A stretch of 64,000 bases of DNA from Escherichia coli (GTDB lineage: Bacteria > Pseudomonadota > Gammaproteobacteria > Enterobacterales > Enterobacteriaceae): the NCBI RefSeq assembly GCF_003334305.1, contig NZ_QOWS01000016.1; one strand, given 5' to 3'. Positions 2,683 through 17,476 of this stretch are shown one piece after another (within the stretch, counting starts at the first letter, position 1; the number at the start of each line of letters is the position of its first letter). The translations under genes were made by a program, and so were the position numbers. The notes beneath the pieces were generated by a model, which worked only from the letters and a program-made list of their open reading frames with translations, did no database searches and was not told the origin of the DNA.

Positions 2683-4959
2683 ATGCTCAATCAAGAACTG
2701 GAACTCAGTTTAAATATGGCTTTCGCCAGAGCGCGCGAGCACCGTCATGAGTTTATGACCGTCGAGCACTTGTTACTGGCGCTGCTCAGTAACCCATCTG
2801 CCCGGGAGGCGCTGGAAGCGTGTTCTGTGGATTTGGTTGCGCTCCGTCAGGAACTGGAAGCCTTTATTGAACAAACCACACCCGTTCTGCCTGCCAGTGA
2901 AGAGGAGCGCGACACACAGCCGACGCTGAGTTTTCAGCGTGTACTGCAACGTGCGGTCTTCCATGTCCAATCCTCCGGTCGCAATGAGGTAACCGGTGCA
3001 AACGTTCTGGTCGCTATCTTTAGCGAACAGGAGTCGCAGGCGGCATATCTGTTGCGTAAACATGAAGTCAGCCGTCTCGATGTGGTGAACTTTATCTCTC
3101 ATGGCACGCGTAAAGACGAGCCGACACAGTCTTCTGATCCTGGCAGCCAGCCAAACAGCGAAGAACTAGCTGGTGGGGAGGAACGTATGGAGAATTTCAC
3201 GACGAACCTGAATCAGCTTGCGCGCGTGGGCGGAATCGACCCACTGATTGGTCGTGAGAAGGAGCTGGAGCGTGCTATTCAGGTTCTCTGCCGTCGCCGT
3301 AAAAACAACCCGCTGCTGGTGGGGGAATCTGGTGTCGGTAAAACCGCGATTGCGGAAGGTCTTGCCTGGCGAATTGTTCAGGGCGATGTGCCGGAAGTGA
3401 TGGCTGACTGTACGATTTACTCTCTCGATATCGGTTCTCTGTTAGCGGGCACTAAATATCGCGGCGACTTTGAAAAACGTTTTAAAGCGTTGCTCAAGCA
3501 ACTGGAGCAGGACACTAACAGCATCCTGTTTATTGATGAGATCCACACCATTATCGGTGCGGGGGCAGCGTCTGGTGGCCAGGTCGATGCGGCTAACCTG
3601 ATCAAACCGTTGCTCTCCAGCGGTAAAATTCGCGTAATTGGTTCGACAACCTATCAGGAGTTCAGCAACATTTTCGAGAAAGACCGTGCTCTGGCGCGTC
3701 GCTTCCAGAAAATTGATATTACTGAACCGTCGATCGAAGAAACTGTTCAAATCATCAATGGCCTGAAACCGAAGTATGAAGCGCACCACGACGTGCGTTA
3801 TACCGCAAAAGCGGTGCGTGCAGCGGTAGAGCTGGCGGTGAAATACATTAACGATCGTCATCTGCCGGATAAAGCCATTGACGTTATCGACGAAGCGGGC
3901 GCTCGCGCACGCCTGATGCCGGTAAGCAAACGCAAGAAAACCGTTAATGTGGCGGATATTGAGTCCGTGGTGGCCCGTATTGCGCGCATTCCAGAGAAGA
4001 GTGTTTCTCAGAGTGACCGCGATACCCTGAAAAACCTCGGCGATCGCCTGAAAATGCTGGTCTTCGGTCAGGATAAAGCCATTGAGGCGCTGACTGAAGC
4101 CATTAAGATGGCGCGTGCAGGTTTAGGTCACGAACATAAACCGGTTGGTTCGTTCCTGTTTGCCGGCCCTACCGGGGTCGGGAAAACAGAGGTGACGGTA
4201 CAGCTTTCGAAAGCGTTGGGCATTGAGCTGCTGCGCTTTGATATGTCCGAGTATATGGAACGCCATACCGTCAGCCGTCTGATTGGTGCGCCTCCGGGAT
4301 ACGTTGGTTTTGATCAGGGAGGTTTGCTGACTGATGCGGTCATCAAGCATCCACATGCGGTGCTGTTGCTGGACGAAATCGAGAAAGCGCATCCGGACGT
4401 GTTCAATATTCTGTTGCAGGTGATGGACAACGGTACGCTGACCGATAACAACGGACGCAAAGCGGACTTCCGTAACGTGGTGCTGGTGATGACCACCAAC
4501 GCCGGGGTACGTGAAACTGAGCGTAAATCCATTGGTCTTATCCACCAGGATAACAGCACCGATGCGATGGAGGAGATCAAGAAGATCTTTACACCGGAAT
4601 TCCGTAACCGTCTCGACAACATTATCTGGTTTGATCATCTGTCAACCGACGTGATCCATCAGGTGGTGGATAAATTCATCGTCGAGTTGCAGGTTCAGCT
4701 GGATCAGAAAGGTGTTTCTCTGGAAGTGAGCCAGGAAGCGCGTAACTGGCTGGCCGAGAAAGGTTACGACCGGGCAATGGGCGCACGTCCGATGGCGCGT
4801 GTCATCCAGGACAACCTGAAAAAACCGCTCGCCAACGAACTGCTGTTTGGTTCGCTGGTGGACGGCGGTCAGGTCACCGTCGCGCTGGATAAAGAGAAAA
4901 ATGAGCTGACTTACGGATTCCAGAGTGCACAAAAGCACAAGGCGGAAGCAGCGCATTAA
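2683..4959 (+). CDS. clpA: clpA, ATP-dependent Clp protease ATP-binding subunit (758 aa)
   Basis: ORF track 2668..4959; start trimmed to ATG 2683 ([10 protein letters not shown]) preceded by GGGGAGG SD; two AAA+ modules with Walker A GESGVGKT and GPTGVGKT. Confidence 0.96.
3176..3189 (+). promoter_or_regulatory. Internal ribosome-binding site plus in-frame ATG (Met169) inside clpA, consistent with internal initiation giving the shorter ClpA form
   Basis: GGAGG at 3176-3180 followed 6 nt later by in-frame ATG at 3187-3189 (…[11 protein letters not shown]…). Confidence 0.5.
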
Positions 4960-4984
4960 TCTGATTGTTAGGTAGGTTGGTCAA

Positions 4985-5020
4985 GTCCGTAATCTCGAAA
5001 GAGGTTACGGACTTTTTGTT
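4985..5020 (+). terminator. Rho-independent terminator downstream of clpA
   Basis: GTCCGTAATCTC-GAAA-GAGGTTACGGAC hairpin followed by TTTTTGTT. Confidence 0.75.
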
Positions 5021-5171
5021 TATGGGGTGGAGGAGGTTCAGACCCTTTTTTTAATGATGATGGTAAGTTGTTGATAATTAGTGCTGCGGGAAGGTAAGGA
5101 TAAAAAAGGGTGCTGCAGGAGAATGGGATGGTTTTGCTTTATTAACAACGGGCTAAACGTGTAGTATTTGA

Positions 5172-5259
5172 GTTCACTGCCGTACAGGCAGCTTAGAAAT
5201 CGACGGGGTGCGGTAAAACCTTTGCGAACGCGTTCACTGCCGTACAGACAGATAAAATG
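5172..5259 (+). CRISPR. Orphan type I-F CRISPR remnant: 2 repeats flanking one 32-nt spacer, no cas genes in window
   Basis: Repeat 1 5172-5199 GTTCACTGCCGTACAGGCAGCTTAGAAA (canonical I-F repeat); spacer 5200-5231; repeat 2 5232-5259 GTTCACTGCCGTACAGACAGATAAAATG (22/28 identical, degenerate terminal repeat). Confidence 0.85.
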
Positions 5260-5291
5260 CGAAAAAAAAGCTCGCACTTTCGTACGAGCTC
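5260..5291 (-). terminator. Terminator of serW tRNA gene
   Basis: Hairpin AGCTCGCAC-TTTC-GTACGAGCT at 5268-5291 with the A8 run 5260-5267 (U-tract on minus strand), immediately 3' of the tRNA. Confidence 0.6.
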
Positions 5292-5302
5292 TTCTTTAAA
5301 TA

Positions 5303-5390
5303 TGGCGGTGAGGGGGGGATTCGAACCCCCGATACGTTGCCGTATACACACTTTCCAGGCGTGCTCCTTCAGCCACTCGGACACCTCACC
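5303..5390 (-). tRNA. serW: tRNA-Ser (anticodon GGA), CCA encoded
   Basis: Minus-strand read GGTGAGGTGTCCGAGTGGCTGAAGGAGCACGCCTGGAAAGTG…GGTTCGAATCCCCCCCTCACCGCCA; long variable arm typical of tRNA-Ser. Confidence 0.95.
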
Positions 5391-5574
5391 AAATTGTTTT
5401 GCTACCAAACCTCATGGGTGGCAACGGGGCGCTACTATAGGGAGTTGGAGTAAAACGGTCAAGAAGAATTTTAATGATAATTATTGTTTGCTCATACTGT
5501 AAACAAGTTGTGCAGTATATCTACATCGAGACAAGTTACGGACTTATACTTCCAAAGTACTTCATACATATCAC

Positions 5575-5604
5575 AAAATAAAAAGGCCGGTTAAACCGAC
5601 CTTT
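5575..5604 (-). terminator. Terminator downstream of infA
   Basis: Hairpin GGCCGGTT-TAAA-CCGACC (with G-U pairs at RNA level) followed on minus strand by a U-tract (plus-strand AAAATAAAAA). Confidence 0.55.
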
Positions 5605-5643
5605 TACTCGTTCTTTCTCTTCGCCCATCAGGCGGTAAAACAA

Positions 5644-16864: not shown

Positions 16865-17476
16865 ATGAAAAAAATTGCCATCACCTGTGCATTACTCTCA
16901 AGCTTAGTAGCAAGCAGCGTTTGGGCTGATGCCGCAAGCGATCTGAAAAGCCGCCTGGATAAAGTCAGCAGCTTCCACGCCAGCTTCACACAAAAAGTGA
17001 CTGACGGTAGCGGCGCGGCGGTGCAGGAAGGTCAGGGCGATCTGTGGGTGAAACGTCCAAACTTATTCAACTGGCATATGACACAACCTGATGAAAGCAT
17101 TCTGGTTTCTGACGGTAAAACACTGTGGTTCTATAACCCGTTCGTTGAGCAAGCTACGGCAACCTGGCTGAAAGATGCCACCGGTAATACGCCGTTTATG
17201 CTGATTGCCCGCAACCAGTCCAGCGACTGGCAGCAGTACAATATCAAACAGAATGGCGATGACTTTGTCCTGACGCCGAAAGCCAGCAATGGCAATCTGA
17301 AGCAGTTCACCATTAACGTGGGACGTGATGGCACAATCCATCAGTTTAGCGCGGTGGAGCAGGACGATCAGCGCAGCAGTTATCAACTGAAATCCCAGCA
17401 AAATGGGGCTGTGGATGCAGCGAAATTTACCTTCACCCCGCCGCAAGGCGTCACGGTAGATGATCAACGTAAGTAG
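16865..17476 (+). CDS. lolA: lolA, periplasmic lipoprotein carrier (203 aa)
   Basis: ORF 16862..17476 has tandem ATG ATG; protein [34 protein letters not shown] with signal peptide. Confidence 0.93.

What the first reader, a model, noticed from the sequence alone, without database searches (positions are those of the whole stretch)
5232..5303. Degenerate terminal CRISPR repeat abuts the serW terminator in convergent orientation
The array is oriented on the plus strand while serW is on the minus strand. The serW terminator hairpin (5268-5291) and its U-tract (5260-5267) start one nucleotide after the last repeat ends. Any residual leader-driven transcription would run head-on into the tRNA terminator, which may explain how a cas-less array persists without disturbing serW. 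It also places the island junction precisely at the tRNA 3' flank.
Basis: inference. Interest (0 to 1): 0.25.

Follow-up and report, generated by a model that had tools for sequence, protein, structure and literature searches.

The report
Orphan CRISPR array end at serW
This is the far end of the well-known cas-less type I-F "anti-cas" CRISPR mini-array of E. coli, joined directly to the terminator of the serW tRNA gene; the layout is real and shared by most E. coli, but it is an old, already described locus rather than a new mechanism.

Summary
A type I-F repeat (5172-5199), a 32-nt spacer (5200-5231) and a degenerate last repeat (5232-5259) lie on the + strand. They run straight into the strong terminator of serW, a tRNA-Ser(GGA) gene on the - strand (5303-5390). 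Coordinates are off by about 2 nt.

This is the published orphan CRISPR array of the E. coli clpA-infA locus. Its only spacer matches cas3f of I-F-positive strains, with the correct CC PAM. The same repeat/terminator junction covers at least 80% of the query in 4437 of 5426 complete E. coli genomes, K-12 included.

Three refinements:
- Only nt 1-20 of the last repeat are CRISPR-derived. Positions 5254-5261 (AAAATGCG) are native tRNA trailer, conserved across Enterobacteriaceae and present at the CRISPR-free orthologous site of another Escherichia species.
- In cas-positive strains the cas operon lies between this array and serW.
- The terminator is strong for serW (-21.3 kcal/mol) and weak on the array strand (-9.4 kcal/mol, z -1.5). 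The "head-on block protects serW" idea is plausible but untested, and it is not needed to explain persistence.

Verdict: already known, low interest.

The parts
4983..5014 (+). clpA intrinsic terminator (14-bp stem, then TTTGTTT). It isolates the array from clpA read-through.
   Evidence: Terminator scan; inverted repeat I3.
5015..5112 (+). Promoter-distal part of the 'leader'. This is ancestral clpA-serW intergenic DNA.
   Evidence: It aligns with the CRISPR-free orthologous site of Escherichia sp. MOD1-EC7003 (L030) up to about GGATAAA.
5113..5171 (+). CRISPR-specific, repeat-proximal part of the leader. The promoter was not located here.
   Evidence: Absent from L030. 100% identical to the leader of the I-F-positive strain TW10573. 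No sigma-70 consensus match on the + strand.
5172..5199 (+). Canonical type I-F repeat GTTCACTGCCGTACAGGCAGCTTAGAAA, with a Cas6f-type hairpin.
   Evidence: Rfam CRISPR-DR4, 50.1 bits; hairpin -8.6 kcal/mol.
5200..5231 (+). Single 32-nt spacer, directed against cas3f.
   Evidence: 32/32 match in cas3f of L007 and 31/32 in L001, preceded by CC. The target gene is Cas3f by NCBIfam TIGR02562.
5232..5251 (+). CRISPR-derived part of the terminal repeat (nt 1-20). G17A puts a C.A mismatch in the hairpin.
   Evidence: 19/20 identity to the consensus. Hairpin falls to -1.4 kcal/mol. Homology with I-F-positive arrays ends at 5251.
5252..5261 (.). Orphan-specific 10 nt, ATAAAATGCG. Positions 5254-5261 (AAAATGCG) are native tRNA-Ser trailer (the start of an RtT-like unit), not repeat sequence.
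   Evidence: Identical 8-mer at the CRISPR-free site of L030. A GCAAYATGCG-like motif, most often ending ATGCG, precedes the A-run in many of the 29 loci from several enterobacterial genera. Invariant in the 14 sampled orphan loci besides the window.
5262..5297 (-). serW intrinsic terminator: core stem 5268-5291, GAAA loop, U8 tract templated by 5262-5269.
   Evidence: -21.3 kcal/mol, z -5.9 on the - strand; -9.4 kcal/mol, z -1.5 on the + strand.
5303..5390 (-). serW, tRNA-Ser(GGA), E. coli/serX-type allele (T-stem G-C).
   Evidence: ARAGORN; Rfam tRNA, 53.8 bits; allele comparison.
5434..5462 (-). Promoter-like site for serW (TTGACC, 17-nt spacer, TATAGT).
   Evidence: Promoter scan, 10 of 12 matches; the same site is called in L001.
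5472..5579 (.). Cas-less-type serW-infA spacer. I-F-positive strains carry a second leader and array here instead.
   Evidence: Second homology break. The first ~30 nt are shared with Salmonella arizonae and Citrobacter youngae, so they are ancestral.

Best explanation
[quoted passage not shown] In the literature it is called 'CRISPR-III / CRISPR4.1-2' (Mojica group) or 'CRISPR3' (Touchon and Rocha).

The array has a leader, one canonical repeat, one spacer against cas3f and a last repeat. Only the first 20 nt of that last repeat, the Cas6f hairpin part, are CRISPR sequence. From about 5254 onward the DNA is the native trailer of the serW transcription unit, followed by the serW terminator.

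The junction is one old illegitimate-recombination scar that became fixed. It leaves the whole serW terminator module intact: hairpin, U-tract and 8 nt of downstream DNA. serW expression is therefore unaffected by construction.

The array is kept because its crRNA turns any incoming I-F cas operon against itself. This anti-cas immunity is shown experimentally in the literature, not here.

Transcription from the leader must enter the serW terminator in antisense. Whether it stops there, through a weak hairpin plus UCUUCUUU or through collision with serW polymerases, is inferred and not shown.
For: - Identity of the parts.
- Anti-cas spacer with a CC PAM. Nine of 10 distinct spacers from 14 sampled orphan loci plus the window hit cas1f, cas3f or csy3.
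- Same spacer unit in 1563 of 5426 genomes. Same terminal junction in 4437 of 5426. cas6f-serW junction in 239.
- Breakpoints at 5251 and 5262 against I-F-positive loci.
- Native origin of AAAATGCG.
- Invariant '...CAG ATAAAATG CG A(6-9)' in the 14 sampled orphan loci besides the window, despite different spacers and terminator alleles.
- Literature: tRNA-Ser separates the two arrays, and the terminal repeat is conserved in all cas-less genomes (PMC2886076). Orphan arrays are constitutively expressed and interfere with I-F cas plasmids (PMC8616872 and PMC5972030, citing Almendros 2016). serW position (PMC12736100).
Against: - Almendros 2016 itself could not be read, so expression and interference rest on reviews by the same group.
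- No promoter was located in the leader.
- The G17A mismatch in the last repeat (shared with K-12) weakens the hairpin that should define the 3' end of the only crRNA, so function in this lineage is not guaranteed.
- The direction of evolution (cas loss versus cas gain) is unresolved.
Confidence: 0.85

Rival explanations
1. First reader's model. The inverted serW terminator, possibly helped by head-on collision with RNA polymerases transcribing serW, stops leader-driven transcription. This insulation is what lets the cas-less array persist harmlessly.
For: - The geometry is convergent.
- On the + strand there is a hairpin followed by UCUUCUUU and preceded by A8.
- The dedicated terminator-like hairpin after cas6f in I-F-positive strains (L001 23089-23112) is absent here, so this is the only stem-loop between the array and serW.
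- A published model says convergent polymerases collide at stem-loops to give bidirectional termination (bioRxiv 10.1101/2022.10.23.513370).
- Orphan arrays are reported to be constitutively expressed (PMC5972030).
Against: - The + strand hairpin is only -9.4 kcal/mol and not distinguishable from shuffles (z -1.5). The terminator scan does not call it.
- No 3'-end data were available.
- Persistence has a published selective explanation (anti-cas).
- In some strains the array abuts a duplicated pseudo-terminator of an RtT-like unit rather than the functional serW terminator (L002, L006, L044-L046).
- In strains with an island in serW, the array is followed by the terminator but no tRNA gene (L003).
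Confidence: 0.25
2. The orphan array is a simple deletion remnant of a complete I-F locus of the kind seen in E. coli today. One deletion ran from the last repeat to the serW terminator, and a second removed the other array.
For: - Spacers match I-F cas genes.
- Leader and first repeat are 100% identical to an I-F-positive strain.
- This is the view of the Mojica group ('remnant of an ancient complete I-F system', PMC5972030).
Against: The orphan haplotype keeps sequences that sampled I-F-positive loci lack and that outgroups have:
- the AAAATGCG trailer;
- the start of the serW-infA spacer;
- the G-C T-stem allele of serW.

A deletion cannot restore these. Recombination with an ancestral-type allele, or a different I-F-positive ancestor, would be needed. 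Touchon and Rocha argue for cas gain after a cas-less array (PMC2886076).
Confidence: 0.3
3. The second 'repeat' is a chance resemblance and the locus is not a CRISPR array.
For: Only two copies are present. The second scores below the Rfam gathering threshold (20 against 35 bits).
Against: - 19 of 20 identity, at exactly 60-nt spacing, with 0 chance matches in shuffles.
- Longer arrays with the same terminal repeat exist in other strains.
- The spacer matches cas3f with a PAM.
Confidence: 0.01

Closest known systems
Orphan type I-F 'anti-cas' CRISPR array of E. coli (CRISPR-III locus, CRISPR4.1-2; 'CRISPR3/anti-CRISPR' of Touchon and Rocha 2010; Almendros et al. 2016)
   Same: Same locus (clpA-serW), same repeat, same conserved degenerate terminal repeat, a spacer matching cas3f with a PAM, and no cas-F genes. 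The junction sequence is 100% identical to K-12 MG1655.
   Different: Nothing essential; this window is an instance of it. K-12 carries a different spacer, against cas1f. What this analysis adds is the finer anatomy of the last repeat: 20 nt of CRISPR sequence fused to native tRNA trailer.
Complete type I-F CRISPR-Cas locus of E. coli (LF82, ED1a type; here L001, L007)
   Same: Same leader and repeat on the clpA side. serW lies inside the locus, and + strand transcription converges on the serW terminator.
   Different: cas1f-cas6f (about 8.5 kb) and a dedicated terminator-like hairpin lie between the array and serW. The terminal repeat ends TATTCACA. A second leader and array lie between serW and infA. 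serW is a different allele.
Bidirectional intrinsic terminators between convergent genes (SEnd-seq work; RNAP collision model, bioRxiv 10.1101/2022.10.23.513370)
   Same: One stem-loop flanked by an A-tract and a U-rich tract, lying between convergent transcription units.
   Different: The stem is strongly asymmetric: G.U pairs in the tRNA sense become C.A mismatches in the array sense. No 3'-end data exist for the + strand.
tRNA-linked RtT-type repeats (tyrT RtT; units downstream of serX)
   Same: The 8 nt just outside the U-tract (CGCAUUUU on the - strand) are the beginning of such a unit. Some strains keep one or two full units between the array and serW.
   Different: In this window the unit is gone except for those 8 nt, and no Rfam RtT hit was found.
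Genomic islands integrated at serW or serX by tyrosine integrases
   Same: The same tRNA gene is a hotspot. L003 and L046 carry an integrase gene next to the split tRNA.
   Different: Those junctions lie inside the tRNA 3' end (up to window position 5316) and duplicate it. The CRISPR junction lies 41-49 nt outside the tRNA, beyond its terminator, with no integrase and no duplication.

Membership tests
Type I-F CRISPR array | 28-nt repeat of the I-F (CRISPR-DR4) type with a Cas6f hairpin | tested here: met
   5172-5199 scores 50.1 bits against a gathering score of 35; hairpin -8.6 kcal/mol.
Type I-F CRISPR array | Regular repeat-spacer periodicity (28 + 32 = 60 nt) with at least two repeats | tested here: met
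   Repeat starts at 5172 and 5232. The same frame holds in 2-5-repeat arrays of other strains.
Type I-F CRISPR array | Leader shared with arrays of complete systems | tested here: met
   5015-5171 is 157/157 identical to L007 and 149/158 to L001.
Type I-F CRISPR array | Adjacent cas-F genes | tested here: not met
   No similarity to cas1f-cas6f anywhere in the 64 kb except the spacer. This makes it an orphan array.
Anti-cas orphan CRISPR4 array of E. coli | Located between clpA and serW/infA | tested here: met
Anti-cas orphan CRISPR4 array of E. coli | Spacer matches an I-F cas gene with the I-F PAM (CC 5' of the protospacer, equal to GG in the convention of PMC3506596) | tested here: met
   cas3f at L007 4955-4986 (32/32) and L001 16975-17006 (31/32), with CC at 16973-16974.
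Anti-cas orphan CRISPR4 array of E. coli | Conserved degenerate terminal repeat ...CAGATAAAATG | tested here: met
   Identical 3' end in the 14 sampled orphan loci besides the window. The junction is present in 4437 of 5426 genomes.
Anti-cas orphan CRISPR4 array of E. coli | Array is transcribed, and its crRNA directs interference against incoming I-F cas DNA | not testable with these tools
   Reported in reviews citing Almendros 2016 (PMC8616872, PMC5972030); the primary paper is not held.
Bidirectional intrinsic terminator | Stable stem-loop followed by a U-tract on both strands | tested here: inconclusive
   - strand: -21.3 kcal/mol, z -5.9, U8. + strand: -9.4 kcal/mol, z -1.5, UCUUCUUU, not called by the scan.
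Bidirectional intrinsic terminator | Mapped RNA 3' ends on both strands at the stem-loop | not testable with these tools
   No transcript data are available here.
tRNA-targeted integrative island junction | Junction inside the tRNA 3' end, with a direct repeat of that end at the far boundary and an integrase gene | tested here: not met
   Breakpoints lie at 5251/5254 and 5262, outside the tRNA (5303-5390). There is no tRNA-end duplicate and no integrase in the window. True island junctions lie at or before 5316 (L003).

The most novel reading that the evidence does not exclude
The cas-less array may not be a deletion remnant of the I-F loci now seen in E. coli. It keeps ancestral DNA on both sides of serW: the AAAATGCG trailer, the start of the serW-infA spacer and the native serW allele. 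Every sampled cas-positive locus instead carries a Citrobacter/Kluyvera/cryptic-Escherichia-type serW allele and lacks these ancestral pieces. That would mean the complete I-F locus entered E. coli as a foreign clpA-infA haplotype, with recombination breakpoints inside the array. The mini-array, whose last repeat is cut exactly at the Cas6f cleavage site and fused to the tRNA trailer, would then be an independently fixed and older state. A secondary possibility is that the inverted serW terminator defines the 3' end of the single crRNA precursor where the G17A mutation has weakened the Cas6f hairpin.
Probability: 0.35. Interest if true: 0.35.

Novelty: already known. Interest (0 to 1): 0.12.

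Why it matters
The locus matters as a natural example of a CRISPR array used against its own cas genes, but that has been published since 2010-2016. This check adds bookkeeping:
- the exact fusion point between CRISPR and tRNA-trailer DNA;
- the fact that the junction is fixed in about 82% of complete E. coli genomes;
- haplotype evidence bearing on the published disagreement over whether cas genes were lost or gained at this locus.

None of this opens a new mechanism. The transcription-insulation idea could be tested cheaply with existing K-12 3'-end mapping data.

Tried and rejected
- Chance repeat: rejected.
- Rfam hits to MicC, Thr leader, sraA, sroD and a plastid UTR over 5253-5631: all far below their gathering scores. 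They reflect the terminator hairpins and tRNA T-arm, not real family members.
- Sigma-70 promoter in the leader: none found at the scan's threshold, and hand inspection gave only weak candidates. I do not propose a start site.
- Simple two-deletion origin from sampled I-F-positive loci: disfavoured, because the orphan keeps ancestral bases those loci lack.
- tRNA-integrase island model for the junction: rejected.
- Reading Almendros 2016: not held.
- A literature search for serW + CRISPR was mostly noise from word-start matching; only PMC12736100 was relevant.
- The long alignment against C. youngae was mostly uninformative, because that species has about 2.5 kb inserted between serW and infA. 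Only the first ~120 columns were used.
- The weak direct repeats 5049-5076/5469-5496 and 4995-5014/5526-5545 were not pursued and may be chance.

Full report
**1. What is at the coordinates**

The window is the E. coli clpA-serW-infA region. A 501-nt query around the finding matches all 5426 complete E. coli genomes and is 100% identical to several strains.

Reading the + strand:
- clpA ends near 4958 and is followed by a strong terminator at 4983-5014.
- An AT-rich leader runs to 5171.
- A canonical type I-F repeat, GTTCACTGCCGTACAGGCAGCTTAGAAA, lies at 5172-5199 (Rfam CRISPR-DR4, 50.1 bits against a gathering score of 35).
- A 32-nt spacer lies at 5200-5231.
- A second repeat copy, GTTCACTGCCGTACAGACAGATAAAATG, lies at 5232-5259. 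It matches at 22 of 28 positions, at 19 of 20 over the first 20, and scores 20 bits.
- Then come CG (5260-5261), A8 (5262-5269) and the palindrome GCTCGCAC-TTTC-GTACGAGC.
- tRNA-Ser(GGA) lies on the - strand at 5303-5390.

Read on the - strand, the palindrome is a textbook terminator. It has a 10-bp core stem (5268-5291), extendable to 16 bp, a GAAA loop and a U8 tract, with -21.3 kcal/mol and z -5.9.

The 20-nt repeat core occurs exactly twice in the 64 kb, with none expected by chance.

**2. What it is**

The spacer matches cas3f of I-F-positive E. coli: 32/32 in TW10573 (L007 4955-4986) and 31/32 in GPEC128-620 (L001 16975-17006). It is preceded by CC, the I-F PAM. The target gene is Cas3f by NCBIfam TIGR02562, and the PAM convention is that of PMC3506596.

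Apart from this spacer, nothing in the 64-kb window resembles an I-F cas operon.

In 14 other cas-less loci sampled across the species, plus the window, 9 of 10 distinct spacers hit cas1f, cas3f or csy3.

This is the published orphan "anti-cas" array:
- Touchon and Rocha 2010 (PMC2886076) described a short array between clpS and tRNA-Ser in all cas-less E. coli. They noted spacers against Ypest-type cas1, cas3 and csy2, and a conserved terminal repeat.
- The Mojica group calls the locus CRISPR-III and the array CRISPR4.1-2 (PMC3903273).
- Their reviews state that these arrays are constitutively expressed and destroy incoming I-F cas plasmids (PMC8616872 and PMC5972030, citing Almendros 2016, which I could not obtain).
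- A 2025 survey also notes the position of serW (PMC12736100).

**3. How common the junction is**

- The 85-nt junction (5232-5316) is covered at 80% or more in 4437 of 5426 genomes, and K-12 MG1655 is 100% identical.
- The exact repeat-spacer-repeat unit of this window is in 1563 genomes.
- The alternative cas6f-serW junction is in 239 genomes.
- The remaining genomes were not classified.
- The 14 sampled orphan loci all end "...CAG ATAAAATG CG A(6-9)", as the window does. This holds even though they differ in spacer content (0 to 4 spacers), in the terminator allele, and in whether G17 is G or A.

This indicates one old junction that has since been inherited.

**4. The junction compared with cas-positive strains**

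In L001 and L007 the order is clpA, leader, array, cas1f, cas3f, csy1, csy2, csy3, cas6f, serW (- strand), second leader, second array, infA.

The clpA-side array is therefore not contiguous with serW when cas genes are present.

BLAST of the window against these loci gives sharp breakpoints:
- Homology runs from clpA to 5251, that is nt 20 of the last repeat.
- It resumes at 5262/5263, the first A of the terminator's A-run, and continues to 5471.
- It breaks again over 5472-5579, where cas-positive strains carry the second leader and array.
- It resumes at 5580.

The terminal repeat of the cas-positive array ends TATTCACA. The orphan ends ATAAAATG, matching at only 1 of 8 positions. The two ends are therefore unrelated rather than mutated versions of each other.

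In cas-positive strains cas6f has its own terminator-like hairpin (L001 23089-23112, followed by TTTTAT) upstream of the serW terminator. The orphan lacks it.

**5. Where the last 8-10 nt come from**

A scan of species-representative genomes with the terminator/tRNA-end motif returned 29 loci from Citrobacter, Kluyvera, Enterobacter, Leclercia, Klebsiella, Raoultella, Yokenella, Salmonella and other Escherichia species. In many of them the bases just outside the A-run follow a GCAAYATGCG-like motif, most often ending ATGCG.

At the orthologous clpA-serW site of Escherichia sp. MOD1-EC7003, which has no CRISPR repeat, the sequence reads ...GTGCAAAATGCG-A8-terminator. The first ~100 nt of the E. 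coli "leader" are also present there.

It follows that 5254-5261 (AAAATGCG) is native tRNA trailer, the start of an RtT-like unit. Only nt 1-20, or at most 1-22, of the "terminal repeat" are CRISPR DNA. The fusion point coincides with the end of the Cas6f hairpin.

The terminator module of serW (hairpin, U-tract and 8 nt beyond) is thus untouched. That is enough to explain why the array does not disturb serW.

In some strains one or two complete RtT-like units lie between the array and the real serW. Each unit is a duplicated terminator, 20 nt of tRNA 3' end and about 110 nt more. In those strains the array abuts a pseudo-terminator (L002, L006, L044-L046). In strains with an integrase island in serW, the array is followed by the terminator and only 14 nt of tRNA (L003).

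**6. The transcription idea**

Reviews say the orphan array is expressed, so + strand transcription must enter the serW terminator in antisense.

On that strand the stem has a C.A mismatch where the tRNA sense has a G.U pair. Predicted dG is -9.4 kcal/mol, no better than 16 of 200 shuffles (z -1.5). The tail is UCUUCUUU, and the terminator scan does not call it.

A published single-molecule study argues that head-on collisions at a stem-loop give bidirectional termination between convergent genes. The idea is therefore mechanistically reasonable, and it remains the only candidate stop signal before serW.

It is untested, however. The convergent layout also exists in cas-positive strains, and persistence of the array already has a selective explanation. 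I rate it as a possible side effect (about 0.25), not as the reason the array persists.

In this lineage, and in K-12, the G17A change drops the last repeat's hairpin from -8.6 to -1.4 kcal/mol. How the 3' end of the only crRNA is formed is therefore an open detail.

**7. Direction of evolution (inference)**

Three cas-positive E. coli loci and Escherichia sp. E1V33 carry a serW allele with a compensatory T-stem change (C-G), as in Citrobacter and Kluyvera. Orphan loci, serX, Salmonella, Enterobacter and Klebsiella have G-C.

TW10573 is 100% identical to the window from clpA through the first repeat, but only 124/129 identical over the terminator plus serW. That pattern is a mosaic.

The start of the orphan-type serW-infA spacer is shared with Salmonella arizonae and Citrobacter youngae.

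Together with the retained AAAATGCG, this means the orphan haplotype cannot be a plain deletion product of the cas-positive loci sampled here. It fits whole-haplotype exchange with breakpoints in the array, and it leans toward the Touchon-Rocha order of events. I did not build a phylogeny, so this stays a hypothesis (about 0.35).

**8. Verdict**

The feature is an instance of a well-described locus. Novelty: already known. Interest: low (0.12).

Noticed in passing
window 5303-5390; L001 23181-23268; L007 11164-11251; L015 828-915; L022: The serW allele tracks cas presence. Cas-positive loci have a compensatory T-stem change (GGCGGGG...CCCCGG), as in Citrobacter, Kluyvera and Escherichia sp. 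E1V33. Orphan loci and serX have GGGGGGG...CCCCCG.
   Followed up: partly
L002 14463-14700; L006 2801-3040; L044-L046; L005 1150-1540: RtT-like units (duplicated terminator, 20 nt of tRNA 3' end and about 110 nt more) lie between the array and serW in some strains, and downstream of serX. RefSeq annotates them as RtT sRNA.
   Followed up: partly
L003 6001-7730; L046 2385-3370; L004 3001-4426: Islands carrying a tyrosine integrase split serW (or serX) inside its 3' end. On the clpA side they leave the CRISPR array, the terminator and about 14 nt of tRNA.
   Followed up: partly
window 5015-5112 vs L030 11300-11453: The promoter-distal two thirds of the CRISPR 'leader' are ordinary clpA-serW intergenic DNA, present in an Escherichia species with no array. 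Only about 59 nt next to the first repeat are CRISPR-specific.
   Followed up: partly
L001 20570-21493 and 22516-23070: In the I-F-positive strain GPEC128-620, csy2 and cas6f are annotated as pseudogenes with internal stops, so this 'complete' system is probably inactive.
   Followed up: no
L002 14223-14370; L002 14128-14586 (-); L045 1628-2026 (-): Strain HSP60 has a tandem duplicate of the anti-cas3f spacer unit. RefSeq calls a 'hypothetical protein' ORF across the orphan array on the opposite strand, which is probably an annotation artefact.
   Followed up: no
L039 643-726: In strain MB52 the K-12-type anti-cas1f spacer has lost 4 nt (28 nt instead of 32), which breaks the 60-nt register.
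   Followed up: no
window 5049-5076 / 5469-5496 and 4995-5014 / 5526-5545: Weak direct repeats (71% and 85%) link DNA downstream of clpA with the cas-less-type serW-infA spacer. They may be chance.
   Followed up: no
L022 7109-12348: In Escherichia sp. E1V33 about 5 kb, bounded by a second copy of the terminator and tRNA 3' end, is inserted between cas6f and serW. The array between serW and infA is very long (about 2.3 kb).
   Followed up: no
L007 11486-13287: IS100 lies between serW and the second array's leader in TW10573. The same arrangement was reported for strain B7A in PMC3903273.
   Followed up: no
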